Of a stretch of 64,000 bases of DNA, positions 31,297 through 55,526 are shown piece after piece. The position numbers and the translations under genes were made by a program. The stretch's first letter is position 1. The number at the start of each line of letters is the position of its first letter. Origin of the DNA: Amoebophrya sp. A120 (taxonomy: Eukaryota > Protista > Dinoflagellata). Under the pieces are notes generated by a model. It was not told the DNA's origin. It made no database searches and was given only the letters and a program-made list of their open reading frames with translations. Location: positions 124,001-188,000 of the forward strand of contig CAJINV010000009.1 in assembly GCA_905178155.1 (NCBI GenBank), read 5' to 3'.

Positions 31297-34200
31297 ATGT
31301 TCACGCTTGTCTTCGGCAAGAACGTTGACGTCCACTGGCTCAACGGTGGGTACTGCAAGTTTCTCTTCACTTACTTCCTGGTGCTGATTCTCGGCGTGAA
31401 GATCCAGTACTGGATATCCTGAGCAAAAACGTCCCCACCCCCGAGTTGTCATGCAGATTTGCAATGGCAGGAACATTTGTAATGCGCATCTTCATGAGAA
31501 GCGTTTCCAAATCCAATCGTGTTTTGCAATTTGTAATGCTGTAAACAGGATGAGAAAGTCATGCGGCTCTCCTTGCTAGCCAGCACTACACTGCAGATGG
31601 AAACTTGTCATGCAGAAGTCCCAAAACTTGGGAATTTGTGTTGCAGACCTCCCATCTTGACTATGGTGTGGGGACGTTTTTACATAGGATACTGGATCAA
31701 CCAGGAGCGATGGTTGGCCAGGCACAGCAACGACTACTACGTATCAAATGTAAAAATGTCTGGGTCTGGAAAGATGTAACTTGTGATGCGCATTTCAGAA
31801 CACACAAAAATCTCTGATGCATAGGCAGCCAAAGCTGCTCACTTTCTGTCACCAAAATGGAGGATTTGTCATGCGGATTCGGCATTGCGGAAGCTTCTCG
31901 AAACCTGTGATGCTAGAGCTTCCATGCCAGACCTTCGGTGTCATGCAGAAACAGCATCACTCTTCCAGACCCAGACATTTTTACATTTGATACTACGGGA
32001 ACACAGACTACTACTACACGCATTTGCTAGGTGGCTACTTGATGGAGGACAGAATGCGCTCAATAAGAGGCATGGTGGCGCCGGTGGCTTCTAACGGAAA
32101 TTTGACGGTTGTGCTAGAAGAGGAAGCGCAAGGAAATGCCTCGAACACTTCTGAAGCTGAGGTTACAGGGCTTTCAAGTTTTTCTCAAATAATGCGCAAG
32201 AAAGATGCTAACAGCAGCTGGCAAGTCCAGCAAGTGGGATTAAATGACGGCAAGCCGCTCCCCATGAAGCAGCACTACCACATGATCCGCTGGGACCTGT
32301 CGCAGGTTTTGCAGGAGGTGGTCGAGGCCATGCTGATGCACAACATCACGTCCAAGGCTTCCTTCGACGAGAAACTGGGGAAGATCCAGGAGGACCCGCA
32401 CACAAAGGCGTTATTTTGGGAGATGTTCGTCGGGAGTGTGGAGATCAAGTTGACAGAGATTCGGCCCAACGAGTACGGCTTTGTTTCGGAGGAGAAACAC
32501 GACCCGCTCTACCGGACCCCAGCGGACATCCGCCAGATCCAGCAGTACCAGCACTTTGCCGGCAACGTGACCCTGTACATCGCGGACCGACTCGCGGTGC
32601 ACGCGTTGCGCACCTACATCGACACCTATTTCAAGCCCTTCCACTCCCGGACCCAGAAGTACGCGGGCTACAAGGACGAGTACCTCTATTTTCCGGTAGA
32701 CGTGACCTTGAAGTCGGCACAGAATCTGTGGGGGCATCTGTCCTTCGTTGAAATTCTCGAAGTTTTGGGCAAGTTGCTCGAAGCGGAGAAGGAGGAGGAC
32801 AGGTTGGGAATTTTAGAAGGGTATGACGATGACCAAAATGCTGCTGGTGCTGTAACATGGATCACGAATAATGGGATTGGCAATGAAACGACTCCCACCC
32901 CCGGAAATAACGGGACAACTATCGGACCGAACGAAACCGGTACAACAAACGACGGCGTGGTACGCTTAAAGATCAACATCCCAGTTGGTGAGGAAAGCCA
33001 ACACTCCCAATCCTTTTTACAGCGCGACGTGAACGACAGTAACGAAACCACTGTAAAGAACGCCACGACAGCAGGTAACCAGACTGGAATTGGAAGAAAC
33101 GATTCCAATTCCACACATAAATCGTTGTCCGGAAGAGGAACCACGTTTGGGTCATGGGGAGATGTGAACTTGAAAGTGGAAGTTCCTGGGATAAAAATTG
33201 ACATGGACTTCTTTGGTGACATTACGAAATTGGACGTCGATGAGGTCCGCGAGAAGCTCGATCTGAACGCCTGGAAGGAGAAGCTGATCGCTCGGCACGG
33301 GCGGCTGAAGGCGTACGAGGACCCGTTTCTGAAGCTGCTCACAAGTGACTGGGTGCTGAAGAAATCGGTGAAGCTGGAGGCCAATCTACAGGAGCGCCAG
33401 AAGCTGCTTGGCCTGGAGTGGCTTGGCACAGCCCGGTTTTTTACGCACGAGCAATTGGCTTTGCTCCAGATGACGCAGGAGGTGTTCCAGGATGTTCTCC
33501 AGCTGCTGCGGCTGGACGTGCGCAGTCTCGCGGCGTGGCAGCAGTTTGTGCAAGATACCTCCACCAGGCACGGCTACGGCGACCACGTGTTACCCAACGG
33601 CCAGAGGCTGGGCAAAGTGCAGCTGCCCTCCGTGAGAGACCTGGAGCAGGTGAACCACGTACTGCGCGGCATGCTCAAGCTCATGAGCATCCCCGAGAAC
33701 CAGGATGCCATGGATGCCGAAGCAGAGGAGATTTTCGAAGATCTGGAAGCCGGGGACTTCGAGGGGGCAAAAGACCGCATGGTCAACGCGATGAATGAAG
33801 TTTTGGAGGAGGTCGAGCCCTTCACCATTCCCGGCTGGTTCAGTTTCAAGAACGGAGGGAGTGACGTCGCAGTTACCCCCTCCAAGGGCTCGGGCAAAGG
33901 AACGGGCGCAACCAAAGGCACGGGAAAAGGAACAGACAGCGACGTCTTGGACCCTTTCCTCCCTGAAAACAGCGACAACAGCACTGTAATCCCTCCGATT
34001 GTAGTGCTCGATGACGCCCTTTCGGAAGAGATTATCGACGACGTGCTGGGGAGCATCACGGGGGAAGTTGACGCAGAGAACATATTGCACGGTCAAGCCG
34101 ACAGCACAACGGAAGAGCCGCAAAACCAAATTCCTGTTACGCCGCTTGCCTCGACGGAAGCCCCGGACACGACGTCTGCTACGCCAACACCGGAAACTCC

Positions 34201-37200
34201 AGTGACGACAGAGGAGATTTCCGTTGAAAACGGATTGAAGGAGATCGGGGAGGGTTTGTTTCCGGCTGAAGACGAAAGCAAGGTCGAAGAGCTTCTGGAA
34301 GAGGGGCTGGCGACTATCGGGGACATGGGCATGATGGACAAACTGATGCTCGCCATGAAAGCCGATGAGTTTCTGAAGGCGGAAGACCCGGAGGAGAAGG
34401 CGCAACTGAAGCAAGACCTCGCCACGAGGCTAGACATTACGCCCGCCGAAGCGGACCTCTTGGCCGCCCACTTGCTCAAACACCACGAGGAAGGGACGTT
34501 GGTGGACCGGCTAAGGCCCTGGTTAGATGAGCAAGGGTTTGGACACTTGGTGAGTAGTTCAGCTTCGTCTTTCGTGTCGAAGAAAGTTGTAAATGCGATC
34601 GCAGGCGGCGTCGGAAGTGTCAGGACCACTCGAAGAAACATCAAAATCACGCCAGCAAAGACGCGCCAGTCTGACGTTCCAGATACGCACATGAAAGAAA
34701 AAGAATTTCGTACAACTTCCCGGCTTTTGAAGAAAGAAAAGCAAAGAAATTCAAAATCATTCTCTCCCGCAAGGACTTCCTTTTTGGAACATTTCGCGGA
34801 TCAGACAAGAGCTCACGAACTGTCTTCCGCGGCGGTATTTGAGAGGAAAACGAGTTTTTTGCGACGCGGACTCGCAATCACAATTGCAGGGAAAGAAGAG
34901 GTTTTGGGTGCAACGTCAGGGAGAAGAAGCTCTCTGCTGAGCCGTGGGACTACAGCATCAGATGACTCGTCGGACGCCGAAATAAAGGGCGATCAAGCTG
35001 CACAGGAGGGTGAGGAAAATGAAGATGGACATGACCACGACAAAAATGGAGATTCTGCCCACGACAGTGAAGACGGCATTTCCGCCCTGGAGCATGAACA
35101 ATCTCAGCAAACTGCGCACGAGGACCAGCACAGTGAAAACGGACCTGACGGAGATGATGACCATACCTCCTACGACCTGGACGAGATCCGGGACATCATC
35201 AAGAACCCGACGGACCGCATCGGGCAGAAGCAGGACGACGCGCTGCTGGACACGTTGCGCATCCTGAACGTGAAGCGCAACGTGGAGAAAGCGGCGCTGA
35301 AAGAGCCGGTGTTCAAGCAGTTCGACCGTTTTTTCCAGATGCTCAACCTCCGCCCGATGATCGATGCGGACCTTGAGGAGGCCTTCGAGGCTGAGGAGCA
35401 GGAGGAGGAGCGGAAAGCGAAGGAGGAACTTGAAGCGCTGCTGAAAGAGAACAAAACGGAAGGGGCGGGCCCGTCCTCCGCCTCCTGCTGCGGCGAAAAG
35501 GCAGAGGAGGAGGAGGAGAAAAAACCAGAACCGCTTAGCACCCTGATCCGGTACAACGTGCCCTGGGGAACCGGCACGGAGAGTCTCCAGCTCCTGCAAG
35601 CGTTCATCTTTTTGGTGGTGGAGGCGTTGACCATTTGGTTCACGTTTTTACTGCCCCTGTCCTTCCTGTACCGGTTGTTTGGGTCGTCGATCTTCGAGGA
35701 GCGCGAGAACAAAATGATGGAGATGCAGCTAATCTACGGCTTAGACAAATCGACCTACTGGCTGGCGAATCTGGTGTTCTTCTGGCTGATTCTGGGAACG
35801 CCCTTCCTCGTGGCGCACTGGCTAAACCTGAAGATGCTCAGCGACGTGCTCCCCGGGGAGCACTGGCAGCTGCCGCGCGGGGACACCAACGAGAAAATGT
35901 GGCACGAGCCGTATCCGCCGGCCTCGGAGTCGCTGATTTCCGTTTCGAGTAAAGCGATTTACCAAAAATTTGACAACCACGGATTGCGACGGCTGTTCGC
36001 GCCGGAGGAACTGAATTTCACCCCGTGGATTCCGATTTTCCCGCCGCTAGCGGCCTTACTCGCAGCGTCTACCCTCGCGATCAGTGTCGAAAAGCGGGAG
36101 AAATTCGAGTCCATCCTCGGCACGCTTTCCGGGTTGGGGAATCTGATGATCCTCGGGGCGTATGTGTTGATTGAGATCCTGTTCCCCACGAGGCTCTCCT
36201 TCTGGCCGACGGCGGTCGCCGGCGCGTTTGGCGTGTCCGAACCGAAGCAGGATGTGGTCTACGACCCGTCGTTATCAAATGCAAAAATGTCTGGGCCTGG
36301 AAGAGTTGGAACTTGTCATGCGAATTCTGGAATAGGCAAAAATTTGTATTGCATAAGCACCAAAAGCTTCCCATTTCTTTCTACGCAAATAGGGAATTTC
36401 TCATGCGTGATAGACATCAGGAGGCCTGCGCAAAACCTGTATTATGCTTTTGCGTGCATTAGAGACCAGTTGCGTGATCCAGAAGATGCATGACAAACTC
36501 CTGCAATCTTCCAGACCCAGACACTTTTGCATTTGATAGTCGCTCCCGCGGCCGCCGGAGCCGTGCAGCAGCGCGTACGACTGGCAAACCGTGAACCACA
36601 TTCTCTCCTTCGGGCTCGGGGTCACCGTCCCGGGCTACAGCTACCTCCGGATCGTCGAGCGGGGGCTGAACCTCATGCGCGCCACGGAGCTCGCGCGGCA
36701 CAAGGGGGCGGAGAGCGGCGAGAGCTCGCTGCTCGCGACCCCGAAGTACTGGAACATGGGGCTGCGGGGGCACAGTCTGTACAACTGTGCGCGGAACAAC
36801 GAGATGTCGCCACCAGAGTGGACGCAGCGGCAGAAGCCGATGCTGAACATTTTGAAACTGTCGAAACTCCCCTGGTATCAAATGCAAAAATGTCTGGGTC
36901 TGGAAGAATGCGCGATTTGTCATGCAGCTTTTCCATGACCATGAGGTCTGGAATGCAGGACCTAGCATGACAGATTCTGTGCGATCTCTCTCATGCCTAT
37001 CCTACATGACAAACTCCCTCACGACTTGGTCAAAACTGGACGACCTTTGGTAATCCTGCAACACAGATTTTTGCATGCTTGAGATTTAGCATGACAAGTT
37101 GCATTCTTCCAGACCCAGACATTTTTACAATCCATACCTGGGTCTGGGACGACGAAGCGAAGCTGGAGGAGTACGTGAACAACGCCGGCGCGACGGACTT

Positions 37201-40200
37201 GGCGCACCACCTCGGCCCGGAGTACTGGGTGCCGGTCACGCTGGAGTATCTCAGCTTGGTCTTGAACGTGCTGTTTTGGGGTTGCGCCCTGCTCTACGCG
37301 GAGAGAAGGCGACACAGGGCGGAGGCCGGTGATCACAGGGAAGCGGATGCTGAGACCGCGAAGAATGCTGTAAATGCAGCTCCAAACAAGGGTGGCATCC
37401 TGGATTCGCAGGGGAATCCCTCTATCGCACTCAAACTGGTCGAAATGACCAAGACGTTTGATAACGGGAGGAAGACGGCGAACGACAGGATTTCCTACGC
37501 TGTGAAGCGCGGGGAGATTTTCGGCTTGCTCGGCCACAACGGCGCGGGGAAAACGACCATGGTGTCGCAGATCTGCGGCCAGATCCCGGTCACGAGCGGG
37601 GACTGCTTCGTGACCGGACACAGCATCAAGACCTCGATCACGAAGGTCCGGCAGAACCTGGCGCTTTGCCCCCAAGCGAATCCGCTTTGGAACACGTACT
37701 CGATGCGACAACACTTACAGTATTTCGCCCGGTTACGGCAATTACCCGAGAAGGAACTGAACCAGACGATCGAAAAGTACGCGTTTCTGCTCGGTCTGGG
37801 CGAAAAGTTGGACACCAACTGCGAAAAGCTCTCCGGTGGCCAGAAGCGGCGGCTGTGGGTGCTTTGCTCTCTGCTAGGGTCAGCACCCGTTGTCATCATG
37901 GACGAGCCGACTTCTGGGATGGATCCGCAGGCGAGGCGGGATTTCTGGGTGTTGCTCAAGCGATTGGTCAAGGAGGAGCAGCGCGCGATCATTTTCAGCA
38001 CGCATTACCTGGAGGAAGCGGACTTGCTGGCGGATCGGAAGTTGATTCTCGCTGGCGGCAAGGTCGTCTGCATTGGCACGTCGCAGGAGCTGAAGCATAA
38101 CTTCGGCCAGGGCTTCTGGATCCACGCCATGGTGGACAAATCTGTGTGCCAGAACAATGTCGCCTTGGCAGAGAAGATTCTACACCAAGACTTGAAGCAG
38201 ATCGTGGAAAGGGAATTGTTCGCAAACGCGGAGAAGAATATGAAACAACCGGTCACGTCATCAGAGCAGATAGAACAACAAGGTACAACTCCAGGTGGAA
38301 ATAAAAATCGGGCAACAGCTGCCGCTTTCAATCGCGTGCGGACGAAGAACCCGAAGGTTTCCGACTACTTCCTCGCGTACAGCATTCCATGGGCGGAGGT
38401 GAAGGAAATGCCGCGCATTCTGGACGCACTGGCGAATTTTGCGGAGCAGAATTACCCACCCGGCTTGGTCGAGTTCACGGTGGAACAGACCACGTTGGAA
38501 GAAGTCTTCCGGAACGCGGGGGAGCTCGCGGACCGCGAGGAGGCGGAACGGCAAGAGAGGGTTCTGCAGGCGAAGGGCGGGAGCAGAAAAAAATTGAACC
38601 AAAATGCAAGAGTTTCCCTCGCCGCGATCGAGAACGAGAAAATGAAGGATTTGGTGGACAGCAATCCGAATGATATGCTGAAGCGCGTAACCGCACGAAC
38701 GGACCAGCTGGATCTGCATAATCCGATCGACGAAGACGGAACCACAACAAACGCAAACCGCCCACCGCTGATGCCGCGCAACTACTCCTTCTTTGCCCAG
38801 GTTCTCGCGATTTGGGAATTTCGATTTTACGGAGAATACCACCAGAGACTGCTCGGTGCGCAAATCGGCGGGGCGGTGTTTCTGATCGTGTGGGTCGTGC
38901 TCTGCATCCTGGTGAAGCTGAACGTCGACGACAAACTGGAGGAGTTCATGGAAGTGAAGGAGGAGGACAAGGAGAAAACGGAGATGAAAACTTCCACCCT
39001 TGCCACGGTCATGTCCGTCGGCCTCGGCGGCGTGATCGCCCCCCTAGCCTGGCAAATGTTCGGCGCAAGCGTCGTGAAGGACAGCTACCTGCCGGAAGAG
39101 GACCACGGGCTCGCCAAGCACCTGTACTTGCACGGCATCAGCAAGCCGGCTTACCACATTGCGTCCTGCCTCCACTGGTTGTGTTTTCTCACCCTACCCG
39201 GGTTCTTCTTCTTCACGCTGTCTTTGATCATTTACTTGAACCCGGTCTATGGGTTCAATGACAGTATGATCGGGACGCTGTGGCTCTCCTTCTTCTTCCT
39301 CGGCGTCATCCTCTCCCTCTTCCCCGCCATGCTGCTCACCTCCGGCATGGTTTCCCCGGGGGGCTGGACGATGTACGTGATCCTGAACTACGCCATGGGG
39401 TTCATCCCGACGATCATCGAGCGCGTGATGCAGACTGACTCCTGGGACATGAAGAAGGGAAACACGATCGACTGCTGGGTGCTCCCCACCGCGATGATTC
39501 AGGCGGGCGTCACCTCCACCGAGCAGATTTTCAACTTCGGCGCGCCGGTCTGGTGGCCGAAGGTTTGTTTGTACTTGATCTACATCGTGTTCCCGCCCAC
39601 CGCTTTGGCGGCGAACCTGAAGGGGCTATGGAAACTGCACGCACTGGACCGGATCACGGGCAAAAAAGCCGAGCATTTCTCCGTCTGGTACTACCTCACC
39701 GGCGATGTGGAGGAGCTACCCGCGGATTTGCGCATCTCGTTCGCGGACTCCGGTCTGCCGGACAACTGCAACTCGAACTACTTCCAGGTCACGAGCAGAT
39801 ACGAGGTGCTGGCGCCGCTGTGGAGCCTGGTGTTTTACATCATTGTCGGCATTCTCTACTACAAGGTCTACCTCCCGTACTTTGGGAAGGACGCCTACCG
39901 CACGGAGCAGCAGCTGTTGCGCGACCCGGTCATCGGACTGAAGCTCGCGGAGATCCTGCACAAGAAGTTGAAGGTGCGCGTATTGAGAGGAAAAATCCCC
40001 CCTCCCCATATTAAAAAGGTATGTTTCCAAAAATTTGTGTTGCGGATTTGAGGTCACAAATCCGATCTGTCTTGTAAGAAGACAAGGGCAGAAGCTTCCG
40101 CCCCATTATGGAAGCGACTTCTCATGCTGTCTGGCCTAAAGGGGGGCCGTTTGCCATGCTGAACCACTAGACCCATACGCCCCTACCTAGCCTGGGGATC

Positions 40201-43200
40201 TCGCCGCAGTGCCTCTGTGCAATACAAAGCTGATTTGTGGCCACAAATCAGCATAACAAGTCTCCGTTTTGATATGGGGAGGGGGGATTTTTCATTTTGA
40301 TAGCGCGACACCAAAACGGGGGAGGTGGTCCGGCTGGAAAAGCTCGGCGACGATAACGACGGGGACGTGAATATCCTGAGTAAAAACGTACCCACACCAG
40401 ACTTGTAATGCAGATTTGCAAAGACAGGAAGACTTGTAATGCGCATCCCCATGAGAGCCATTTCCAATCGTGTTTTGGAATTTGTGATGCTGTGAACAGG
40501 ATGAGCAGCTGGATTTGTGACGCGGCTGCACTTGCTAACCTGCACTACACTGCAGAGTGCAACTTGTCATGCGTGACTCACAAAGCTCCTAGGTTTGTGT
40601 TGCAAAATCCCCATCCTGACTCTGGTGTGGGTAGGTTTTTACTCAGGATAGTGAATGCGAATCGCGACCCGGACGTCGTGCGAGAGGAGCAGAAACCGGA
40701 CCGGGCCGCGGAGAGCTACGCGCTGGACGCCGTTAAATTGGTGAAGCACTTCCCGCCCAGCAGCAAGGCGCTGCAGGACAGCCATAACGAGCACCACGGA
40801 ACCGCGACGGAGAACAAGTACACGGCACTGCAGCTGCAGCAGATGAACACGAAGTGGGCCACGAAAAACGTGACGTTCGGTGTCTACGAGGGGGAGTGCT
40901 TCGGCCTGCTCGGGCCCAACGGCGCGGGAAAAACAACGTTGTTTAACCTGTTATCTGGCACGGAGATGGTGGATGTCGGGAGGATTTCGATTTACGGACA
41001 AGACTGTGTGAACACGAAGGAAGCGAGCTACACGGTGGGTTCCTTCCCGCAGGCCGCGCGGGAAAAGATGGGCCTGGCGCTATCAAATGTAAAAATGTCT
41101 GGGTCTGGAAACTTGTGATGCTAAAAGTGAACGAGAGTTCCACTGCAATACGGAGCCAAGCATGACAAATTTTTTGGGCTCCTATGTGTTGCGTGTCCCG
41201 CATGGCAAACTGCGTGTTTGCATGACAGAAAAGAGGACCGCTTCGTGCCCATGCATCACAGATTCTTGAGTCATGTCAGACACGCATGACAAATGCAGGA
41301 ATCTTCCAGACCCAGACATTTTTACATTTGATAGGCGCCGCAGTTCGACAAACTGTGGCCGCACGTGAGCGGGAGAGCGCATTTGCGCCTCTTCTCGAAG
41401 TATGGATTGTAAAAATGTCTGGGTCTGGAAGAATGCAACTTGTCATGCTGTTTTTGGATTCTAAAAAAATTAGTGTTGCGTGACCAGCAAGAAAGGTCCA
41501 GTCTGTGCTACGCGGAGAGGGCATTTCTCATGCGGAAGGCGCATCAGGAAGCCCTCTAAAATTCTGTGATGCTAGGTCATGCATTACAGGCATGAGGGGT
41601 CATGAAAAATATGCATGACAAGTCTTGCACTCTTCCAGACCCAGACATTTTTACATTTGATACGAAGTGCTGCGGCACCTACATGCGCGAGGGCGAGTTG
41701 GATCCCGAAGCCGGGGAGAAGAGGATTAGCACGTTTCTATCCTGAGTAAAAACGTACCCACACCAGAGTCAGGATGGGGATTTTGCAACACAAGCCTAGG
41801 AGTTTTGTGAGTCACGCATGACAAGTTGCACTCTGCAGTGTAGTGCAGGTTAGCAAGTGCAGCCGCATCACAGATTCGTCTGCTCATCCTGTTCACAGCA
41901 TCACAAATTCCAAAACACGACTGGAAATGGCTCTCATGGGGATGCGCATTACAAGTCTTCCTGTCTTTGCAAATCTGCATTACAACTCTGGCGTGGGTAC
42001 GTTTTTACTCAGGATAGTTTCTCAAGCAGGTCAGCCTATCCGAGATCGACGCCGACCGGAAAACCGAAGAGTACAGCGGTGGCATGAAGCGCAAGCTGTC
42101 TGTATCAACTGTAAAAATGTCTGGGTCTGGAAGAGTCATGCTGTTTCTGCATGACACAGAAGGTCTGTCATGGAAGCTCTAGCATCACAGGTTTCGAGAA
42201 GCTTTTGCTACCGATGCATGAGAGATTTTTGTGTGTTCTGAAATGCGCATCACAGGTTACATCCTTCCAGACCCAGACATTTTTACACTTCATAGTCTGT
42301 GGCGCTCACGTTGATCACGGAGCCGAAGCTGGTCTTTTTGGACGAAATGAGTGCAGGTATTGAACACAAATAAAGTTGCGTTTTCTACATACTGACATTT
42401 TTTCGCTATGCTGGTCTGTCACTGCCATACTCAGATGTAGCGGTCAATAGAAGCGGTTATTTCTTGTTTCTGGTACCAGGCTTACTTATGCTTCCGCACC
42501 ACTACTTTCAGAAGATTAGAATGTCAAGAAAAAGAATTATCTTTCTCTCCCCACTTCAGGCGTGGACATCGTTGCCCAGCAGTCTTTGTGGCGGAAGTTG
42601 ATCAACCGGCCCAAGGGGCAGACGATCATTACGACCACACACAGCATGATGGAAGCGGACGCGACGTCGGATCGCATCGGTATTCTGGTCGGGGGCAAGT
42701 TGAAGTGCCTCGGGTCCACGCACCGCATTAAGTCGCAGTACGGTAACGGCTACCAGCTGGAGCTTCTCGTGCGGTGGAAAAAGGGTTTCACGACCCCCGC
42801 CGGCGCGGGGATGGCAAAGGTAAGCACGAGCAGCCCGCTGGTGCGACGCACGGCAAGCATTTTCGCGCTGACCGCGCCGGAAACCAAAACTGCGTCCGTT
42901 TGGGAAGATGACGATCAGCCGCTCCTGGAGGTCTCGGACGAGGAGCGACGCAGCAAAATGAGTGTGGAAAAGGAGGAGCAGGAGAAAGAGATTTTGAAGG
43001 AGCTGCAGGCGGCCATGGAGGAGGAAGATAACAGCCCCGCCACACCAACTACGCCAGATCCCGCGATGAACGTGATGCCTTTCGTCCAGAGCATTCAAAA
43101 AGCGGGAAACATCGATAGTTTCCGGCTGGAAGAGAACGGACGTCGCAGCCAGGCAGGCATCAATGAAACTGCGCCTCTGGCGGGTGTCAATGAGACCATC

Positions 43201-43998
43201 GCTCCTGGGAGCGATAACTTTAGTATCGCAGGAGACTACGATCAACAAAATATTGCAGAGGTCGAAAGAAGGCGGGAGGACATTTTAGCGTCGTCGACCG
43301 TTGGCTCACAAGCAGGAGGAGCCCCAGTGAGAGGTAGTGCGGCGACCCAGGATGATTCGATTGATATCATTCCGAGTAGTCAAACGACGAGTCTGCCTTC
43401 TGGTGCGGAAATACCGCAGATACAAATTATTCACGGGGCACAACCTGAGGGAGAGGCGGATGAGGATGCTATTTCCGCTGGAGCAGAGTCGGACGCCGTA
43501 AGCAGTCTAGCCGTGAGCAACGAGATACTCTCGTCTGCCCCACCACCACCACCTGGTGCGCCAGCCGCTGTTGCGGCCGAAATCGTGGTCGCAGCAGCAG
43601 CTCCAAGAAGAACTACTGTCGCAAGAATCGAGCCGGCAACGGCGGACATCCTGGACGAGCGGATATTGATGCAATCTCTGATGCAGCATACTCCCCTGGA
43701 AGCGGAAGACATCTCCTTGAGTGAGAAAATGCTTTTCCAGACCGCGAATGCGGAGGGGGCGACGGAAACAGGGGCGCTGCCGGACGAGACGCAGAAATCG
43801 TTCCGCGTGCGGGTGATCTTCAACCTAAAGAAGAAACCGGGACTGATGTCCGCCGTGTTTCGGTGGTGCATGGACGACCCGCTGCAGATCATCGAAGACT
43901 ACGGCTTCGGTGAGCCAACACTGGAGCAGGTCTTCTTGAAATTCGCAAAGGAACAGGAAACCATCGAAGAGGATAAGGGCGCTTCAACAGAGACCTGA
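31297..43998 (+). CDS. Full-size ABCA-subfamily transporter (paralog 1), 12 exons, ~3,268 aa, interrupted by 10 TIR introners and one GT-AG intron (42357-42559)
   Basis: Exons 31297-31414, 31697-31741, 31998-36271, 36543-36875, 37142-39980, 40308-40371, 40656-41080, 41339-41400, 41668-41737, 42022-42102, 42300-42356 and 42560-43998 sum to 9,807 nt in frame. NBD1 has GHNGAGKTT, LSGGQKRRL, DEPTSGMD and THYLEEA. NBD2 has GPNGAGKTT, YSGGMKRKL and DEMSAGVD. C-terminal PTLEQVF. Colinear with the neighbouring paralog. Confidence 0.92.
31415..31691. mobile_element. Introner/MITE family B, 277 bp, TSD CTGGA
   Basis: Ends TATCCTGAGCAAAAACGTCCCCAC and GTGGGGACGTTTTTACATAGGATA. CTGGA at 31410-31414 and 31692-31696. 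Removal gives IQYW-INQE. Confidence 0.93.
31742..31992. mobile_element. Introner/MITE family A, 251 bp, TSD CTACG
   Basis: TIR TATCAAATGTAAAAATGTCTGGGTCTGGAA / TTCCAGACCCAGACATTTTTACATTTGATA. CTACG on both sides. Removal gives NDYY-GNTD. Confidence 0.95.
36273..36538. mobile_element. Introner/MITE family A, 266 bp, imperfect TSD GTCGT/GTCGC
   Basis: TATCAAATGCAAAAATGTCTGGGCCTGGAAG ... CTTCCAGACCCAGACACTTTTGCATTTGATA. Removal gives YDPS-LPRPPEPC in frame. Confidence 0.93.
36876..37136. mobile_element. Introner/MITE family A, 261 bp, TSD CCTGG
   Basis: TATCAAATGCAAAAATGTCTGGGTCTGGAAG ... CTTCCAGACCCAGACATTTTTACAATCCATA. Removal gives KLPW-VWDDEAK (paralog: RLAWSYEDGDK). Confidence 0.95.
39981..40302. 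mobile_element. Introner/MITE family C, 322 bp, TSD GCGCG
   Basis: TATTGAGAGGAAAAATCCCCCCTCCCCATAT ... ATATGGGGAGGGGGGATTTTTCATTTTGATA. GCGCG on both sides. Removal gives KVR-DTKTG. Confidence 0.93.
40372..40650. mobile_element. Introner/MITE family B, 279 bp, TSD GTGAA
   Basis: TATCCTGAGTAAAAACGTACCCACACCAGA ... TCTGGTGTGGGTAGGTTTTTACTCAGGATA. Removal gives GDV-NANRDPDV. Confidence 0.95.
41081..41333. mobile_element. Introner/MITE family A, 253 bp, TSD GGCGC
   Basis: Perfect 30-bp TIR TATCAAATGTAAAAATGTCTGGGTCTGGAA. Removal restores the Q-loop MGLA-PQFDKLW. Confidence 0.96.
41401..41662. mobile_element. Introner/MITE family A, 262 bp, TSD CGAAG
   Basis: TATGGATTGTAAAAATGTCTGGGTCTGGAAG ... 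CTTCCAGACCCAGACATTTTTACATTTGATA. Removal gives LFSK-CCGTY (paralog: LYAKCSGTY). Confidence 0.95.
41738..42016. mobile_element. Introner/MITE family B, 279 bp, TSD GTTTC, inverted relative to 40372-40650
   Basis: TATCCTGAGTAAAAACGTACCCACACCAGAGT ... ACTCTGGCGTGGGTACGTTTTTACTCAGGATA. Removal gives ISTF-LKQV. Confidence 0.96.
42103..42294. mobile_element. Introner/MITE family A, 192 bp, TSD GTCTG; shorter, inverted relative of 31742-31992
   Basis: TATCAACTGTAAAAATGTCTGGGTCTGGAAG ... CTTCCAGACCCAGACATTTTTACACTTCATA. Removal restores YSGGMKRKLS-VALTL. Confidence 0.95.
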
Positions 43999-45282
43999 TG
44001 AATTCGCTCAACCCTCACTCGATCGACATCAGTTTCTGGATACAACTATTTTGCGTTTCTATTTCTAATTGAATTCATCTATGTACTTACTTACTACTAC
44101 AGCACTTTTGGCCCAATTTGAATTTTCAAGGAGCGGCAGGGTTTGCTGTCTCTTTATCTTACATCACCCAGACCCAGACCCACCATCACCAATTATGGAC
44201 TTCCACTTTATTCTCATACTGACTCCTGTCGGACTTACATCACAGAAACAGACATTCTTTCTATCTTCCTTCTTCGTCTTGTTTCTAAAGTACGTCTGAC
44301 GAAGAACAGCAAGCATGCATAGCAGCCGTTAGTTTAGCTTCCCCAGAAATTTTCTACATTTGGACACACGCATCTGTGCATTTTTCTCCCCTTCTGCCCG
44401 CGGCCAGTAGTATCCCCACAGAAGTTTTTCATTTTGTCATCTATGTATCTTTCCAAGAGAAGAAAAAATATTGCCGTCGACCATGGGATGTTCATATTTT
44501 GCTTCGCTTGTTGTTGTTCATCTGCGGGCTTGAGCGCGTCGCTTTGATTCATTTATTGCAGGCTCCAGGAAGAATGTGAATGCAAAAAGCCACAATCACC
44601 CGCATGTTTCGTATTGTGATTATGCATCCGAATCTTCGTCCGCTCCTGATGCAGTGAGGAAAAAATAACGGCGCTCTAACATTTTCGTGCATAGTCTGGC
44701 GATCGTTCTTCTTTAGTGTCGTGTCAAATTTCAGTTGTGATACATCTTGGATCGTTCGTATTCTTCGTCTTCGTGCGTCCTTCGACGGTATCGCAAGTAC
44801 AGCTCCTGTTTCTGTTTCACAATGTCAGGATCTCTTGAGGCCCTTTCGTTACACTTACATTGGCAGGATGAAGTAGCATTCCTAGAAGTGAAACCCATAT
44901 TTTTACCCCATTTGAATTACGAAAAAAAATCCACCCGCTATGTAAATTCACTATAGCTGCATCTCGACGATGAATATTGTGAGTCGGTGTCTGCCCTCAA
45001 TAACTACAATAAAATTTTACAGGAGACAGAGTCACGAGAGCCCGTACATGGGTGACTAGTACCTAAGTACACTTCCTTGTTAGTTATGATGTTTCGTACC
45101 TTGTGTTACTATGCAATTTGACAATAGAGCTCGTTTCGCCACGGCGTAGATCCTACTCCAATATTATCCCACAGAGCTAGTTCTTGATTTGACAAGGCCT
45201 CCCTTTTATTGTTCCTTCATGCGAGAAGTCATCAAACCTTAAATCCTCCTTCATCCGTTGCTTTTGTTCAGGTCCGCCCAGC

Positions 45283-48200
45283 ATGTTGGCGGGTTTTGGC
45301 GTCGTTTGGGAGAAGAATATGCAGGTGTATTGGCGAAACGGGGGCTACTGCCAGTATCTGGTCACCTACGTGATTGTCTTATGCCTGGGTATCCGTCACC
45401 AGCTGTACTGGAACGCGGAGGAGTTGCGCGCGGACCACTTTACAGCGTACCACGAGACGCTCACCCTCCCGAACACGACCCTGGCGGAGCTGAAAGAAAA
45501 CGCCACCGTGGTGGACACCGTGCGCAAGTGGATTGTTCGTGAGCTCGCGTACGGTCTGGTTCACAACAACGCGGACAGCCAGCAGGAGGCGATGACGCTC
45601 TTGCACGGCGTGTTGCAGCATCCCCACGTGGCGAACTCGGAGCTCGTGTCCGTGCAAAGGGGCGGCCCCGAACCGGAGCTGTTCCGCCACGCTGTGAGCG
45701 GCCTGGTGTCCAACATCACCGCAAAGGTGCTGCGGCAGGAAGCAAGCATTTCCATCGTGGACTTCGTGCGCGAAACCAATCCAGCGTTGCTGCTGCGGGC
45801 GTTTCCCGATCCGCATCTTCTGCAGAACAGCCTGATGCCGATCGAAGAACAAACGGAATACGCACGAAGGCTTGTTTCGGGGGGCCACTTGGGGGGTGGG
45901 ACTGGAAAGATCTTGGGCAAGAAATCTTCTGAGGAGAATGCTGAGATGAAAAGCGCGAGGACGTTTGCGGAGAAACTGTCGGACGAGCACGATTTGATCG
46001 GTTTGTTGGAGAAGATACTCGCCTCAACCGAGCCGCCGGGCGACCTGTCGCGAGTCGTGGACTGGAAGTTTTTGGCCGGGGAAAGCGTGTACGCGGACTA
46101 CGTACGGGACACGCTGAACGTCACCGCCGAGCTTGTCCGCGCATTCTACGGGGAGGACCTGGACAGCGCGAATTATAACGAAGGAGAAGGCGAGGGCCCT
46201 GTTCCAGCCGCCCCTTCCACGCTAACCAAGGAGGATCTGCGGCAGCTGGGAAGCCTGAGCACGGCACTGTTTTTGGCCAATCTAGTGGTGCCAGCCAGTC
46301 GTTTTATTGCGCTCGCGCAGACCAGAAACATGTTTGTTGAAAGCGGCCTTTCACTGTCAGCCGCGGAGGGAGCAGAGAGCGAGACCAACCTCCAGTTGCT
46401 CCACAGCCTGGGGATGCTCATCACCTCGCTGAGAACCGAGAAGCTCGATGTGAAGAAAGATGCAGAGACTAAGAAACCTGAAAAGGCGGGGCTTCAGAAC
46501 GTGGACGGGGAGGAAGCTCCTGCTCCCTGGGGAAACGATCATCCCTGGTGGGTTTTGCAGCTGTTTTCCATGCGACCACGAGCTGCCGCACTCCAGGAGA
46601 AGCTCGGAAACCTAAAGCAGGGCGGCGGCGCTGCCAATGCCACAGTAGGGGTAGTAAATGCCACGGAAATTCCTACACCGACTCTTCAGAGTGAGCTACG
46701 GCAGTCGGTCGAAGCAATTTTGACGATGGAGTTTTTTGCGAACGCACTCGCGTCGAGCGACGTGTCGGCAGTCGAGCTGGGTAAGAGACTGGCCAGCTCA
46801 CGGGAAAGGGCCGCTGAGGTGGCTGTGAAGGAGGCCACTGATCTGAAGAATTCTACCTACTACGATATGCCTTTGGCGCCCATGCTGCTGGATGCGGAGC
46901 ACAGTAAAGAAAGTCAAAAGGTTGGCCCAGCACCAAACTCGTTATACATGTACGAGAAAAATAAGCAGGAACTTCTGAATCCGGGCGGGCGCTTCGGTCC
47001 CGGGGGGGCCGAGGACTTTCAGGATCAGGACCCGAAGAAGAGGGTGGCTAGATTTTGGAAATTCGGGGGCGCAGACCCCTCCGCTGGAGCACTAAAGGAC
47101 CGAACAGATGATCCGGAACAAGCAAAATCCCCCGTAGAGGAAATAGCTAGATTCTTGCCGCGCGACAGATCGAAAGATCGGCGGTTGGCGGAAAAGGGAA
47201 GCGGAAAGGGGCAGCAAGACCACAAAGGCATAGATATGGAAAAGAGGCTGGAGAGGAGGGCCCGACGTGCCCCGCCAGGGAAGGATTTTTTACAATCTCG
47301 CGTTTCGTTTCTGCAGAAGTCGCATCTGCGTCGACGCGCGAGTCCAGCAGCTACGCTTGACGGGAAGTCGAGGGACGCTGGTTTTTCAAAAATCAAAGCT
47401 CCTCGACGTCCAACGACGCTGCTGCAACGCGGACTTCGCCGTGAGGGTGTAACTACTCTGGCCGCGTCTCCACTCAGACCGAAACCGCAGCACACCATGT
47501 TGTCCGAAGACATTCGTCCGGGAGGAGGAGAGTTGAAGACAGAAGGACGAGGCGTCGGTACAACGGGAGAAAGCTCGGCGTGCGCGGATCCAAGTTCCGG
47601 CATCAGACGAAGCGTGAACAACAATGCCAGGGGCACGAACTCCTACGGCAGCCACGCTGGCGGTGATTCCCTCATGGATAAGTCGTCGCGATTTTTGTTT
47701 ACCGCAGAGGGCGATGAAGCAGGTACAGCCGCGAAGATCCACTTCACATCTACATCTTTCGCCGAAGCAGAGGAAGAAGATTCGCAAGAGCAAGATGATG
47801 TCGTGTATAAAAATGCACGTCCCCTTCGGAAAGAAGAGGACACGGCAACATCAACCTTCCTGGCGACTTCATCCAGCAGAGCGACCAAAAATGATCCCCA
47901 TGTTGACGCAGAAAGCCAGAGAGTACAGCTGCCCGACGGGACTGTGGAGCCAGGGAAGAATGAAGGGAAAAGTATCGCACCAGCGCCAACTTCCACACTG
48001 CCCCCGGAGCCAGCCGCACCACAACCGCCTGCTCCGCAGGAGGCCTTGGCACTCGTGTCCCGTCAGACGGAGCGGAACCTTTTGGATTCCATGCGCGCCG
48101 AAATTTTGTCAACATTTGACACGGACGGGGCGCTACTGAACGCCCTGGACGCGGAGCTGACGGACGCCCCGTCCGATCTCGATGTGAAGACCACGGGCGG

Positions 48201-51200
48201 GTGGCCCGACGCCATGGGAAGCATGCGGCTGTTGCTCGGATATCAAAGTGAAAAAAGCCCCCACCCCATATCGGAAACGGAAGATGCGCGAATTTGTGAT
48301 GCTGTATTTGAGTACACAAATCAACTTGTATTGCTAGAAGGCCGAGAGACGAAGCTGCGGCCTAAATTGCAGGTAATCTGTCATGCTGTTTCCCACTTCC
48401 AGTTGCCTCTTGTCATCCTGGAGCTGCAAGGCTTTCCCACGCTAGACAGCGCTACAGTCTGCATCTTTTGCCTTCTAGCATCACAAAGCTGATTTGTGAC
48501 CACAAATCTGCATCACAGATTTCCGTTTTGATATGGGGAGAGGGCATTTTTCATGGTAATATCGGATTCATCCTGTTCATCCTCGAAGCCGTGGTGGCCT
48601 GGTTCACGTTTCTACTACCGTTGTCTTTCCTCTACCGCTTGTACGGACTGGCGATTTTTGCGGAGAAGGAAAGCGAGCTGATGGACATGCAGCTGATTTA
48701 CGGCATGCGGAAGCGCACGTACTGGGTGGCAAACATCCTCTTCTTTTTCGTTGTCCTCGGCACCCCGTTCATGATCACGCACTGGGTGAACCTGGCTCTG
48801 GTCGCACAGATTATCCCCCTCGACCGCCTGTGGCCGTCGAACTTCCTGTTTTACGTCTTCGCGCCCATGTGCCCACCGCTGGCGGTGTTGCTGGCGGTGT
48901 CCGCCTTGGCCATGCGTGTGCGAAATTCCGAGAAGTTCGAGAGCGCGGTGACCACGATCAGTTCGCTCGGGAATTTGCTGGTCTTGGGCGTCTACATTCT
49001 CTGGGAGGTCCTCCTGCCGACGCGCATTTCCTTCTGGGCGACTGCGATCCGGGGCGCGCTGACCACCCACGGGCTCGCGGCCACGGAGGAGGTCCCCTTG
49101 GCATCCATGTGTCCCGACGTCAGCGCGGGCGCGTGGAACGTGGTGCTGTCGACGATCTTCGGCGTTGCCGTTCCCGGCTACGCCTACATGCGGCTGAACA
49201 TGCGGGGCTGGCAAATGAAGGGCGTGCTGCAGCTGATGCGGCATCGGGGCAGCGAGATGGGTTGGTACTCGCTGGAACCCTTGGCGCCGGCCTGGAACCA
49301 GGGCCTCCGCGGCCACAGTTTGTACTACTGCGCGCGCGACAACTTTCCCTCCCCGCCACCGGACACCGTCCGCAGCCAGCCCGCGCTGGATCTGACCGGG
49401 CTGTCCCGTCTCGCGTGGTCCTACGAGGACGGCGACAAGATCGAGCAGTACGCCAACCAGGCGGGCGCCGCGGAGCTGAGCCGCACGCTTCCGTTTGCGG
49501 ACTACGATCTGATCATCCTGCTGGACCTGCTCGCGGTCTTTCTCAACGTGGGCTTCTGGATTCTGGTGGTGTACCGGATCGAAAGGTACCAGAAGCAGGC
49601 CACTTCCGGGGACGTGCTTACGGTCGAGGAGACCTTTCGCGAAGCGGGACTCGCGACGGACGCGCCGCCCAAGGTAAAAATGGTGCTTGCGAGTTCCGAT
49701 TCTTCGGACTCGGATTGGGATTCAGTGCGAGCAAAGTATCGCCAGTCGGTCGCCGGGCCGAGCGGAGCAGACAGAGCTTCTGCGAGATTGTCGTTGTTGA
49801 AAAGGCAAAGCCTACAACAACGGGGAAGCAAAGAACCTGCTTTCGAGCCGCCTGATCGTCCTGAAGAACAAGCCAATTTGCAGCCCGCGGGGGCGAAGAA
49901 GGGGAAGCATGTTGCGCCGTCCGTCCCGGCGCGCGGACACAAAGTGCCGATCGTTCTGCAGGTGAAGAAGGTTACGAAGACGTTTTTGCAAGGCGAGAAG
50001 GTCGTGAACAACGACGTGAGTTTCGAGATCAAGCGCGGCGAGATTTTCGGGCTGCTGGGGCACAACGGGGCGGGAAAAACCACTTTGCTGAACATGATCA
50101 GTGGCAAGGTCCCGGTGACGTTCGGAAAGATCGTGATCATGGGACGAACCAACAGCGCGGCAGAGATCCGCAAGAACAATTTGATCACACTCTGTCCGCA
50201 GGGGAATCCCTTGTGGGACAATTTCACCGTGGACCAGCACGTGCGGTTCTTTGCCCGGTTGCGCAACGTGGACGACGTGGAGGCCTCGGTCCGCAAGTAC
50301 GCGTCGCTTTTAGGGTTGAGCCAGCACTTTGACACGCACTGCAAGTACCTGTCCGGCGGGCAGAAGCGGCGGCTGTGGGTGCTGTGCTGTCTGCTCGGGT
50401 CCGCGCCGGTGGTGCTGATGGACGAGCCCACGACGGGCATGGATCCGCAGGCGCGCCGAGATTTTTGGATTTTGCTCAAGAAGATCGTGAAGGAGGAGAA
50501 GCGGTCCGTCATCTTCACCACACACTACCTCGAGGAGGCGGACCTGCTTGCGGAGCGGAAGTGCATCTTGGCGCACGGCAAGATCCGTGCGATTGGCACG
50601 TCGCAGCAGCTGAAGCGGCAACTCGGCAGCGGGTTCTGGATTCACGCGATGATCGAAAAGCGGGAGGACGCGAACCCAGACCTGGTAAGGAACGCACTAA
50701 GATCCCTCGCGCCCATCATCGAACGTGTTCTGTACCCGAAAGGCATCACATTTTCCTCTAGGCCAGTGACATCAACTGCCGCCAGGAGTCCTCCTTCGAT
50801 GGGCACTGCAGCACTTCTGGACCGAGGCGCAGATTCCATGGACACGGACAGCGAGAGAAGCGAAAAGAAAAAACGGAAGAAAAACAAAGAGCCACTTCCG
50901 CTGGCTGAGTTGGACGACGGGTCGCGGACTATGATTGGCAAGATCGTGACGAAAAATCCTCGCAACAGCCGGCACTTCTTGGCCTTTCTCATCCCTTGGG
51001 AAAAGATCCCGCAAATGGCGGCCGTGCTGGAGGCCCTGCAGAAGCGCCGGGGGGAGATGCTCGAACGGGGATGGACAGTGATCCCCACCAGTTTGTTGTC
51101 CGGATTGCACGGTGAACTCGCCGACCCCGTGAGGGTGGACTTCACCATCGCACAGACCACGCTGGAGGAAGTGTTTCACACGGCGGGCGAGGTGGCAGAC

Positions 51201-54200: not shown

Positions 54201-55526
54201 TCGGAGTTGTCGAGACCTGCAGTGGGTGGATCAGAGGAAAGAGTACCGGCTTCGCAGGAGAACGCAACAAACGTCGCAGCGCGGGTGGTGGTTCCCGAAG
54301 GAGAGACAGATGCACTAGAACCGGAACAAGGAACTGAACAACATCACAACCCGCTGGGAAGTCGTGATATGATTGAAGAGCAGGCTCTACCTCACGCGGC
54401 GGAAGAAGAAAGGCCACCATCAACCACGCACAGTGTTTCTCCTGTTGATGTTCCGCCGAACGGTCTCTCAGGTACGACGAGCCACATCGCGGTCCACGCA
54501 AATAAACCAGGCGCGGTTGGTAGCCCGGGAACTTCTACACGTGCCGGTTACCATCATAGTGGTAGCAACGTCACAAAGATGTCAACGGAGATGATTGAGC
54601 AGCTGACTTCCAATGTTGAGGAGGTGGAAACGTTTGTGATCGATTCTTTGCTGTCGTGGAAAAGTAGACGAGATGGGGGAGGAGAAATCGAACGCGGCAA
54701 GACTGTCGAGCAGACGAAGAAACAAGTACAACATCGCAGGAGCAGAAGTACAACATCGAGCGGAAGTTCAACATCGCAGGAACAGACGCCGGTAAGCGAG
54801 ATTGGATTGATTCGCGAGGACATCCAGGTGCTGGAAAAAATGCTGTTTTCGCATCACCGAGTGCGACTGATTCTCTCGCTTAACCCGCCGAGGATCCAGA
54901 AAAGGTCTCTGAAGAAACAAACGAGCAAAACAACGTCTCCAAAAAACGCATTGAGAGTGCCAGGAAATAAACAAGCAAAACAGGGTCAACCAGTAGCGCC
55001 ATCATTTACCCTGAATTACAAGGCAAGGCTCAAAGGAAATCAACAAGAAAGAGTTCCAGCTACTGCACCGGAAGGCGAAGCTGATCCTCCAGATGCGGAA
55101 AATGCCGTCAGTATCGACATCGATGGAGGTCGAGATGATGCGGAGGCGACTGGAGATGACGGGACTATCAAGGATCTAACGGCACAAGAGTTCGAGAAAT
55201 ACGGCTTAGCGGAGGCGTTGCTCCTTTCCGAGGAAGACAACGAGTTTAAAGAGGTCACCACTCAAGTGCAGGGTGCGAGAAGAGGATCGCTGGCCGCGAA
55301 ATTTATGCAGAAGGACAAGAAGAGGCTGTTGCGGCAAGTGAACCTGGCGGGAGTGTTTCGGTGGTGTGCGGAGGATCCATTGAATATTATTGAAGACTAC
55401 TCCTTCGGTGAACCAACGCTGGAGCAAGTCTTTCTCAAATTCGCCAAACAGCAGGAAAAGGACGATGCCAGCGGAAGGAGGGACCGCGCGGAGGCGAAAT
55501 TCCGTGGAAGCACTGATTCGTTGTAG
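45283..55526 (+). CDS. Full-size ABCA-subfamily transporter (paralog 2), two exons (45283-48240 and 48567-55526), ~3,305 aa
   Basis: Two TMD-NBD halves with GHNGAGKTT, LSGGQKRRL, DEPTTGMD and GPNGAGKTT, YSGGMKRRL, DEMSAGVD; C-terminal PTLEQVF. The N-terminus (KN..V.W.NGGYC..L.TY) is shared with paralog 1. Confidence 0.93.
48241..48561. mobile_element. Introner/MITE family C, 321 bp, TSD TCGGA
   Basis: TATCAAAGTGAAAAAAGCCCCCACCCCATATC ... GATATGGGGAGAGGGCATTTTTCATGGTAATA. The subterminal sequence is shared with 39981-40302. Removal gives MRLLLG-FILFILEA (paralog: LQLLQAFIFLVVEA). Confidence 0.93.

What the first reader, a model, noticed from the sequence alone, without database searches (positions are those of the whole stretch)
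31410..48566. No GT-AG register exists: non-canonical splicing or IES-like DNA excision
I slid each boundary through its 5-bp duplication (six frame-restoring registers). None of the 11 elements gives GT...AG, and only 41081-41333 allows GC...AG. The only invariant is the element's own TAT...ATA ends. A normal GT-AG intron (42357-42559) lies 57 coding nt from the last element in paralog 1, so two removal modes act on one gene. Inference: either the ~30-bp TIR stem guides splicing by a modified spliceosome or an endonuclease/ligase, or the elements are removed from DNA leaving one direct repeat, as ciliate IESs do with their pointers.
Basis: partly seen in the sequence, partly recalled or inferred. 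Interest (0 to 1): 0.8.

Follow-up and report, generated by a model that had tools for sequence, protein, structure and literature searches.

The report
Hairpin introns without splice signals
Eleven short transposon-like hairpins interrupt two transporter genes of the marine parasite Amoebophrya, and those that could be checked are cleanly missing from assembled transcripts although they lack normal splice signals; this is an already described oddity of this organism, in which the paired ends likely guide a still unidentified RNA cutting-and-joining step.

Summary
Observation confirmed; phenomenon already published. Eleven 192-322-bp elements (TAT...ATA ends, ~30-bp inverted repeats, 5-bp duplication) interrupt two ABCA genes; no equivalent register gives GT-AG. 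The window matches Amoebophrya sp. A120 proteins at 100%, and the elements fit the non-canonical 'introner elements' of Farhat et al. 2021 (TAT-N7-AAA ends). Transcript-like contigs lack six elements plus the GT-AG intron to the exact length; DNA-like contigs run into the elements. So removal is at RNA level (about 0.92); IES-like DNA excision is unsupported. Added here, from 155 elements of a related genome: insertion in both orientations, GT-AG registers at chance level (4 of 82 vs 3.5%), and three imperfect duplications that place a fixed cut inside the duplication. The catalyst is unknown: structure-measuring nuclease/ligase about 0.5, modified spliceosome about 0.42. The scan noted similar hairpin-bounded introns in other genomes (unchecked).

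The parts
31297..43999 (+). ABCA-type transporter gene, paralog 1; 12 coding exons, 3268 aa after removal of 10 elements (each with one duplication) and one GT-AG intron
   Evidence: identical to public A120 protein P0013
31415..31691 (.). introner element, family B, 277 bp, duplication CTGGA
31742..31992 (.). introner element, family A, 251 bp, duplication CTACG
   Evidence: 96% identical to an element in locus L101
36273..36538 (.). introner element, family A, 266 bp, imperfect duplication GTCGT/GTCGC; the right copy's fifth base is the one kept
   Evidence: X3 record 12 ends at 36267
36876..37136 (.). introner element, family A, 261 bp, duplication CCTGG
39981..40302 (.). introner element, family C, 322 bp, duplication GCGCG; skipped exactly in transcript-like contigs
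40372..40650 (.). introner element, family B, 279 bp, duplication GTGAA; 96% identical inverted copy of 41738-42016; skipped exactly
41081..41333 (.). introner element, family A, 253 bp, duplication GGCGC; only one with a GC-AG register
41401..41662 (.). introner element, family A, 262 bp, duplication CGAAG
41738..42016 (.). introner element, family B, 279 bp, duplication GTTTC; opposite orientation to 40372-40650
42103..42294 (.). introner element, family A, 192 bp, duplication GTCTG; internally deleted, inverted relative of 31742-31992; sits in the ABC signature region
42357..42559 (+). ordinary GT-AG intron, 203 nt, pyrimidine-rich 3' end
45283..55526 (+). ABCA-type transporter gene, paralog 2; 3305 aa after removal of one element
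   Evidence: public A120 protein P0001 matches residues 185-3305
48241..48561 (.). introner element, family C, 321 bp, duplication TCGGA
   Evidence: junction peptide present in P0001

Best explanation
These are miniature inverted-repeat elements, the known introner elements of Amoebophrya A120, that stay in the DNA and are missing from transcript-like contigs together with exactly one 5-nt duplication, and they are likely cut out of the pre-mRNA by a structure-measuring nuclease and ligase separate from the GT-AG spliceosome. Steps 1-4 (RNA-level, stem-guided removal) about 0.92; the catalyst in step 6 is close to a toss-up with a modified spliceosome.
For: Identity: paralog 2 region 100% identical to a protein named Amoebophrya sp. 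A120; paralog 1 exact-removal translation identical to P0013 at 3268 of 3268 aa; published A120 end motif TAT + 7 nt + at least three A (PMC7789003 section 11) is met by 11 of 11. Need for removal: keeping any one of the 10 elements of paralog 1 gives a stop (10 of 10). RNA level: X3 record 13 and X4 record 19 skip six elements and the GT-AG intron with gaps of 64, 272 and 761 nt, equal to prediction; no indel against homologues at the four NBD2 junctions. No border code: GT-AG register possible in 4 of 82 sense-oriented perfect duplications vs 3.5% in flanks, G[TCA]-AG 7 of 82 vs 9.9%; no base bias at any duplication position. No orientation code: 191 opposite vs 189 same-orientation homologous pairs; largest clusters split 26:18, 11:11, 3:3; 40372 and 41738 are 96% identical, inverted, and both skipped. 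Stem: 31-42 terminal pairs predicted in 11 of 11. Cut inside the duplication: position 5 from the right copy (window 36273), position 1 from the left copy (L018; Gly in 8 of 8 other homologues that cover the site), position 4 from the right copy (L089; Lys in the one orthologue). Precedent: euglenid hairpin introns leave as circles without lariat and are proposed to use other factors (passages of PMC11282704, PMC12501133).
Against: No call shows the catalyst, an intermediate or the excised RNA. A120 keeps nearly all spliceosomal proteins and U2, U4, U5, U6, with U1 undetected, which fits a changed spliceosome equally well. One register allowed by my three cases ends the intron in TA-N, like YAG with a free last base. 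The RNA evidence is one sample of assembled contigs whose RNA label is a guess; joints were inferred from lengths, not read base by base, and four arithmetic all-canonical combinations also sum to 272 (excluded only by the homologue alignment and the public protein). The register argument rests on three elements, two from another genome without RNA, one of them a conservative Arg/Lys difference. Mismatches between duplication copies are mostly silent (11 of 15), which hints that the register may not be fixed.
Confidence: 0.5

Rival explanations
1. Same RNA-level, stem-guided removal, but catalysed by a modified U2 spliceosome: the hairpin (or a protein on it) replaces U1 in defining the 5' site, and the 3' site is TA-N instead of YAG.
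For: Six of 89 spliceosomal proteins and only U1 among snRNAs undetected in A120 (PMC7789003 passages); GT-AG and element introns alternate in one gene around 45-81-nt exons; the register 4 nt before TAT / 1 nt after ATA fits all three imperfect duplications and ends in TA-N; a T-run lies 11-15 nt from the 3' end in 11 of 11 window elements; tunicate precedent (review passage).
Against: No selection on first or last intron bases in any register; orientation independence leaves no room for an internal branch point unless it sits in the inverted repeat; several families lack the T-run; both sites sit at the foot of a long stem that would have to be melted (inference).
Confidence: 0.42
2. The skips are reverse-transcriptase jumps across a hairpin between short direct repeats; in the cell the elements stay in the mRNA and are bypassed at translation, or the genes are not translated.
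For: Hairpin plus short direct repeat is the known substrate for such artefacts (PMC8240250, abstract and listing only); all RNA evidence, mine and published, is cDNA-based as far as I read.
Against: The assembled contigs skip six consecutive elements at once; a 3268-aa frame with intact ABC motifs is kept across 10 elements that each introduce a stop; about 30,000 such elements in A120 genes would need efficient hops of 200-330 nt.
Confidence: 0.03
3. IES-like DNA excision: the elements are cut from the DNA in a somatic stage, leaving one duplication as a pointer.
For: Geometry fits (one direct repeat left, inverted ends). Assembled contigs drop rare variants, so a minor or stage-specific excised DNA is not excluded.
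Against: In X1 (flat depth about 43-50 over unique DNA, hence DNA-like) listed contigs cross 12 of 22 exon-element borders without mismatch or break at depth 42-49, though only 1 of 12 has 31 or more letters on both sides; the element-free contigs also lack a GT-AG intron, so they are spliced RNA; no germline/soma nuclear dimorphism is known in this group (recalled), and excision from the only genome would lose the elements for good (inference).
Confidence: 0.02
4. Ordinary spliceosomal splicing at nearby cryptic GT/GC/GA-AG sites that change a few codons.
For: Frame-keeping, stop-free options within 20 nt exist for 10 of 10 elements of paralog 1.
Against: The 64-nt gap leaves no canonical option for 39981 and 40372; every zero-sum canonical combination for the other four needs 3-11-residue indels that homologues do not show; P0013 equals exact removal; 48241 has no GT/GC option within 20 nt.
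Confidence: 0.02

Closest known systems
Introner elements / non-canonical introns of Amoebophrya sp. A120 (Farhat et al. 2021, PMC7789003; Gozashti et al. 2025, PMC12130899)
   Same: Same organism label; TAT-N7-AAA inverted ends, 3-5-nt direct repeats, about 240-nt length, non-canonical borders, genes with both intron types, RNA-seq support; classed as TIR DNA elements with mostly non-canonical sites in the 2025 data set (19 of 58 A120 rows seen).
   Different: Nothing in kind. The paper leaves the border position unknown and, by word search of its main text, does not discuss element orientation or excision from DNA; those points are addressed here.
Nonconventional introns of euglenids
   Same: Variable borders, terminal inverted repeats that pair, target-duplication-like repeats, MITE origin proposed, coexist with GT-AG introns, machinery unknown.
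   Different: Euglenid introns have a weak border consensus and CAG/CTG motifs inside the ends and are shown to leave as circles; the A120 elements have a fixed 5-bp duplication, TAT...ATA ends, no border preference, and their excised form is unknown.
MITE-derived non-canonical introns of the tunicate Fritillaria borealis
   Same: Transposon-derived, non GT-AG, abundant.
   Different: They keep preferred dinucleotides (AG-AC, AG-AT) and are attributed to the spliceosome (review passage); here no dinucleotide is preferred.
Ciliate internal eliminated sequences with pointers (recalled)
   Same: Interrupt coding sequence, flanked by short direct repeats of which one remains, transposon-like ends.
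   Different: IESs are absent from somatic DNA and need nuclear dimorphism; these elements are present in the DNA-like run and absent only from spliced contigs.

Membership tests
Amoebophrya A120 introner element | Occurs in the A120 genome, inside a gene | tested here: met
   100% identity to A120-named proteins P0001 (searched region) and P0013 (whole)
Amoebophrya A120 introner element | Terminal inverted repeat starting TAT, 7 variable nt, then at least three A | tested here: met
   11 of 11; definition from PMC7789003 section 11
Amoebophrya A120 introner element | Direct repeat of 3-5 nt at the borders | tested here: met
   5 of 5 in 10 of 11, 4 of 5 in 1 of 11
Amoebophrya A120 introner element | Non GT-AG borders, absent from transcripts | tested here: met
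   0 of 11 GT-AG; six of 11 skipped with exact length in X3/X4 contigs, four more have a contig that stops matching at the border and runs on
Amoebophrya A120 introner element | Repeated in families | tested here: met
   three families in the window; 9 of 11 have a near full-length relative (74-96%) among 155 elements of related loci
MITE (non-autonomous TIR DNA transposon) | Short, TIRs, target duplication of fixed length, many copies, either orientation | tested here: met
   136 of 164 raw calls with perfect 5-bp duplication; both orientations
MITE (non-autonomous TIR DNA transposon) | Cognate autonomous element / transposase with the same ends | not testable with these tools
   no whole genome held; Farhat found none in A120, Gozashti report TIR elements with Copia/Gypsy-like ORFs, ends not seen by me
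U2 (major) spliceosomal intron | GT/GC...AG borders | tested here: not met
   0 of 11 GT-AG, 1 of 11 GC-AG; chance level in 82 others
U2 (major) spliceosomal intron | Excised as a lariat through a branch A | not testable with these tools
   needs lariat sequencing
U12 (minor) spliceosomal intron | AT-AC or GT-AG borders with the U12 5' consensus | tested here: not met
   AT-AC in 0 of 11 equivalent registers; minor snRNAs reported absent
Ciliate IES | Absent from somatic DNA | tested here: inconclusive
   no element-free DNA contig among those listed; borders present at genome depth; rare or stage-specific forms would be dropped
Ciliate IES | Element-free form exists as unspliced DNA | tested here: not met
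   the element-free contigs also lack the GT-AG intron
Ciliate IES | Germline/soma nuclear dimorphism and domesticated excisase | not testable with these tools
   recalled as not known in Syndiniales
Euglenid-type nonconventional intron | Excised as full-length circular RNA without lariat | not testable with these tools
   needs circle sequencing

The most novel reading that the evidence does not exclude
Amoebophrya A120 runs a second, non-spliceosomal nuclear splicing machine that finds tens of thousands of transposon hairpins by shape alone, in either orientation, cuts inside the 5-nt target duplication on both sides of the stem whatever the bases, and ligates the exons, so that any insertion of this transposon family into a gene is neutral from the first moment.
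Probability: 0.45. Interest if true: 0.8.

Novelty: already known. Interest (0 to 1): 0.3.

Why it matters
The elements and their odd borders are published, so the finding itself is not new. What stays open is how about 60% of this organism's introns are removed without splice-site bases. The tests here narrow that: no selection on border bases, no orientation preference, and a cut that probably lies inside the duplication. Imperfect duplications are a free, genome-wide ruler for the cut position that existing raw RNA reads could answer. If the catalyst is not the spliceosome, it is a sequence-blind, structure-guided RNA excision system that makes transposon insertions harmless, parallel to the euglenid case in an unrelated lineage.

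Tried and rejected
No whole genome is held for this window, so no search for snRNAs, transposases or ligases was possible. Junctions were not seen base by base: the joints table was filled by repeat cross-matches from X1 (15 shown, 1027 not), so exact removal rests on contig lengths and the public protein. No holder is on record as RNA; raw-read run X9 had no reads on the exons, so it says nothing on these genes. A lead that the base before TAT pairs with the base after ATA (6 of 11 in the window, P=0.03) did not hold in 136 others (20.6% vs 24.3% in flanks): rejected. The idea that N-TAT mimics a GTAT donor (cut 1 nt before TAT) is contradicted by L089, on one conservative difference. The A/T-run as a universal polypyrimidine tract: not universal. 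No 5'/3' asymmetry in end conservation among 96 oriented elements. The strand model had one mis-framed training sequence, corrected; its control on the 11 window elements is not independent of training. Rows dropped: 9 of 164 raw calls (8 with fewer than 3 of 5 duplication matches, 1 nested duplicate); 59 of 155 without a confident strand. The PDB search did not reach the junction residue. Paper searches found no study that identifies the catalyst or excised form in Amoebophrya; subscription journals are not covered. No earlier scan note exists on this genome.
Full report
Observation. A scan of the window for TAT...ATA pairs with complementary 30-nt ends found 11 elements of 192-322 bp between 31415 and 48561; 10 have a perfect 5-bp flanking duplication and one has 4 of 5. 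Across all product-equivalent registers none gives GT-AG or AT-AC and one gives GC-AG. The GT-AG intron 42357-42559 starts 57 coding nt after the last element's duplication. A random coding 5-mer allows a GT-AG register 4.1% of the time, so 0 of 11 is the chance expectation: the sites were not selected to be canonical.

Host genes and organism. The interrupted genes carry ABC_tran and ABC2_membrane_3 domains. Removing each element with one duplication, plus the GT-AG intron, gives one 3268-aa frame from ATG 31297; keeping any one of the ten elements gives a stop. The best hit of the second gene is 100% identical over the searched region and is named Amoebophrya sp. A120 by its source; another A120 protein, P0013, is 3268 aa and equals my translation at every residue. 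That annotation was transcript-guided (PMC7789003 section 25), so it is support from RNA but not independent of the genome.

RNA or DNA. Eleven runs were listed, none of the holders on record as RNA; four were laid. X1 has flat depth of about 43-50 over unique sequence, which I read as DNA; it may be the source of the assembly. Its listed contigs cross 12 of the 22 exon-element borders without mismatch at depth 42-49, running 23-47 nt into the inverted repeats (only one meets the tool's 31-letter bridging rule). X3 and X4 (one sample, RNA by guess) have uneven depth, and one contig in each skips six elements and the GT-AG intron. The unmatched stretches are 64 and 272 nt in X3 and 761 nt in X4, exactly the lengths predicted by element-plus-one-duplication removal. 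Because those contigs also lack a canonical intron, they are spliced RNA. Contigs drop rare variants, so a minor excised DNA form is not excluded, but nothing points to it.

Cryptic canonical sites. Frame-keeping, stop-free G[TCA]..AG options within 20 nt exist for all ten elements of paralog 1. For 39981 and 40372 the 64-nt gap and the match up to 39975 leave only exact removal. For the four elements in the 272-nt gap, four all-canonical combinations also sum to zero, but each needs indels of 3-11 residues that the alignment with ten homologues does not show at these junctions.

A larger sample. They come from a related but distinct organism: one exon is 83% identical to its A120 orthologue. 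They gave 164 raw element calls, 136 with a perfect 5-bp duplication and 18 with 4 of 5; 155 were kept and 96 got a confident gene strand from a codon model. Removing element plus 5 nt gave a confident open frame in 96 of 155, against 27-42 for out-of-frame removals. A GT-AG register was possible in 4 of 82 perfect duplications (flanks 3.5%), G[TCA]-AG in 7 of 82 (9.9%), and no duplication position showed a clear base bias. Homologous elements lay in the same and opposite orientation to their genes about equally (189 vs 191 pairs, not independent; clusters 26:18, 11:11, 3:3, and small ones 4:0, 3:0, 1:1, 2:0, 2:0). In the window, 40372 and 41738 are 96% identical inverted copies and both are skipped. 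So the removal signal is symmetric and lies in the ends, which fold into 31-42 terminal pairs in 11 of 11.

Where is the cut? Imperfect duplications act as rulers. At 36273 the public protein has Leu, so position 5 comes from the right copy, and the X3 contig stops matching at 36267 as that reading predicts. In L018 position 1 gives Gly (left) or Glu (right); 8 of 8 other homologues covering the site have Gly. In L089 position 4 gives Arg (left) or Lys (right); the single orthologue has Lys. One fixed register fits all three only if the cut falls after position 1, 2 or 3, that is 2-4 nt before TAT and 1-3 nt after ATA. This is three cases, two without RNA. Against a fixed register, 11 of 15 mismatches in 14 confidently framed elements are silent, more than a model with one free copy expects (P 0.001-0.03 by settings; up to 0.055 with the window's case added), a hint that both copies may be read at times.

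Mechanism. Shown: need for removal, exact length of removal, presence in DNA-like contigs, indifference to border bases and orientation. Inferred: origin as a non-autonomous TIR transposon with a 5-bp target duplication; recognition of the stem and its TAT/ATA base; cut inside the duplication. Untested: the catalyst. I lean slightly to a structure-measuring nuclease and ligase (0.5), because the spliceosome's active site normally reads the first and last intron bases (established knowledge, recalled) and none is selected here, and because euglenid hairpin introns leave as circles.

What is known. Farhat et al. 2021 (PMC7789003; I read the abstract, passages, sections 11, 12, 16 and 25, and passages of the supplement's text; its figures S19-S25 are not readable here and may already show register or orientation data) report that over 60% of A120 introns are non-canonical, 29,850 repeated ones in 1,954 families, inverted ends starting TAT + 7 nt + at least three A, 3-5-nt direct repeats, U1 undetected and border positions unknown. 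Gozashti et al. 2025 (PMC12130899; passages and 19 of 58 A120 rows of one data set; two supplementary files not searched) class most of those rows as TIR DNA elements with many non-canonical sites. PMC12005148 (passages) notes that other strains use GT-AG and have U1. PMC11282704 and PMC11453091 (passages), PMC12501133 (passages and Discussion) and PMC8240250 (abstract) gave the comparisons. Four searches found no paper that settles the catalyst in Amoebophrya; subscription journals are outside the library. Earlier scan notes on other genomes describe similar hairpin-bounded introns; they are unchecked and did not change my reading.

Verdict. Real, correctly described, already known. The open mechanism and the small new constraints justify modest interest: 0.3.

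Noticed in passing
window 45283-45834: The public model P0001 of paralog 2 starts at residue 185 of an open frame whose first 45 residues resemble the N-terminus of paralog 1, so the model is probably N-terminally truncated by 184 aa.
   Followed up: partly
window 40372-40650 and 41738-42016: Two 96% identical copies, inverted, 1.1 kb apart in one gene; may reflect local hopping or just a young family (relatives at 95-96% exist in L017).
   Followed up: partly
L039 1029-1308: An element with an 8-bp instead of 5-bp duplication; removal of element plus 5 nt would leave 3 extra bases and keep the frame, as a ruler mechanism predicts. Single case.
   Followed up: no
L030, L074, L123: Elements whose partner end has a substitution in the terminal TAT but a good duplication; natural tests of whether TAT/ATA is needed for removal.
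   Followed up: no
window 37058-37129 (run X9): About 170 raw RNA reads carry a family-A right end with foreign sequence on both sides, i.e. an element end retained in an abundant RNA from another locus or strain.
   Followed up: no
L012, L017, L030, L041, L053, L057, L070, L097, L099, L131: Mismatches between the two duplication copies are mostly silent in the host frame (11 of 15), hinting that both copies are under coding constraint.
   Followed up: partly
window 199-30647: The long ORFs of the first half are all on the + strand like the ABC genes, and 8 of 9 scanned have no Pfam match; no inverted-repeat element with a duplication was found there.
   Followed up: no
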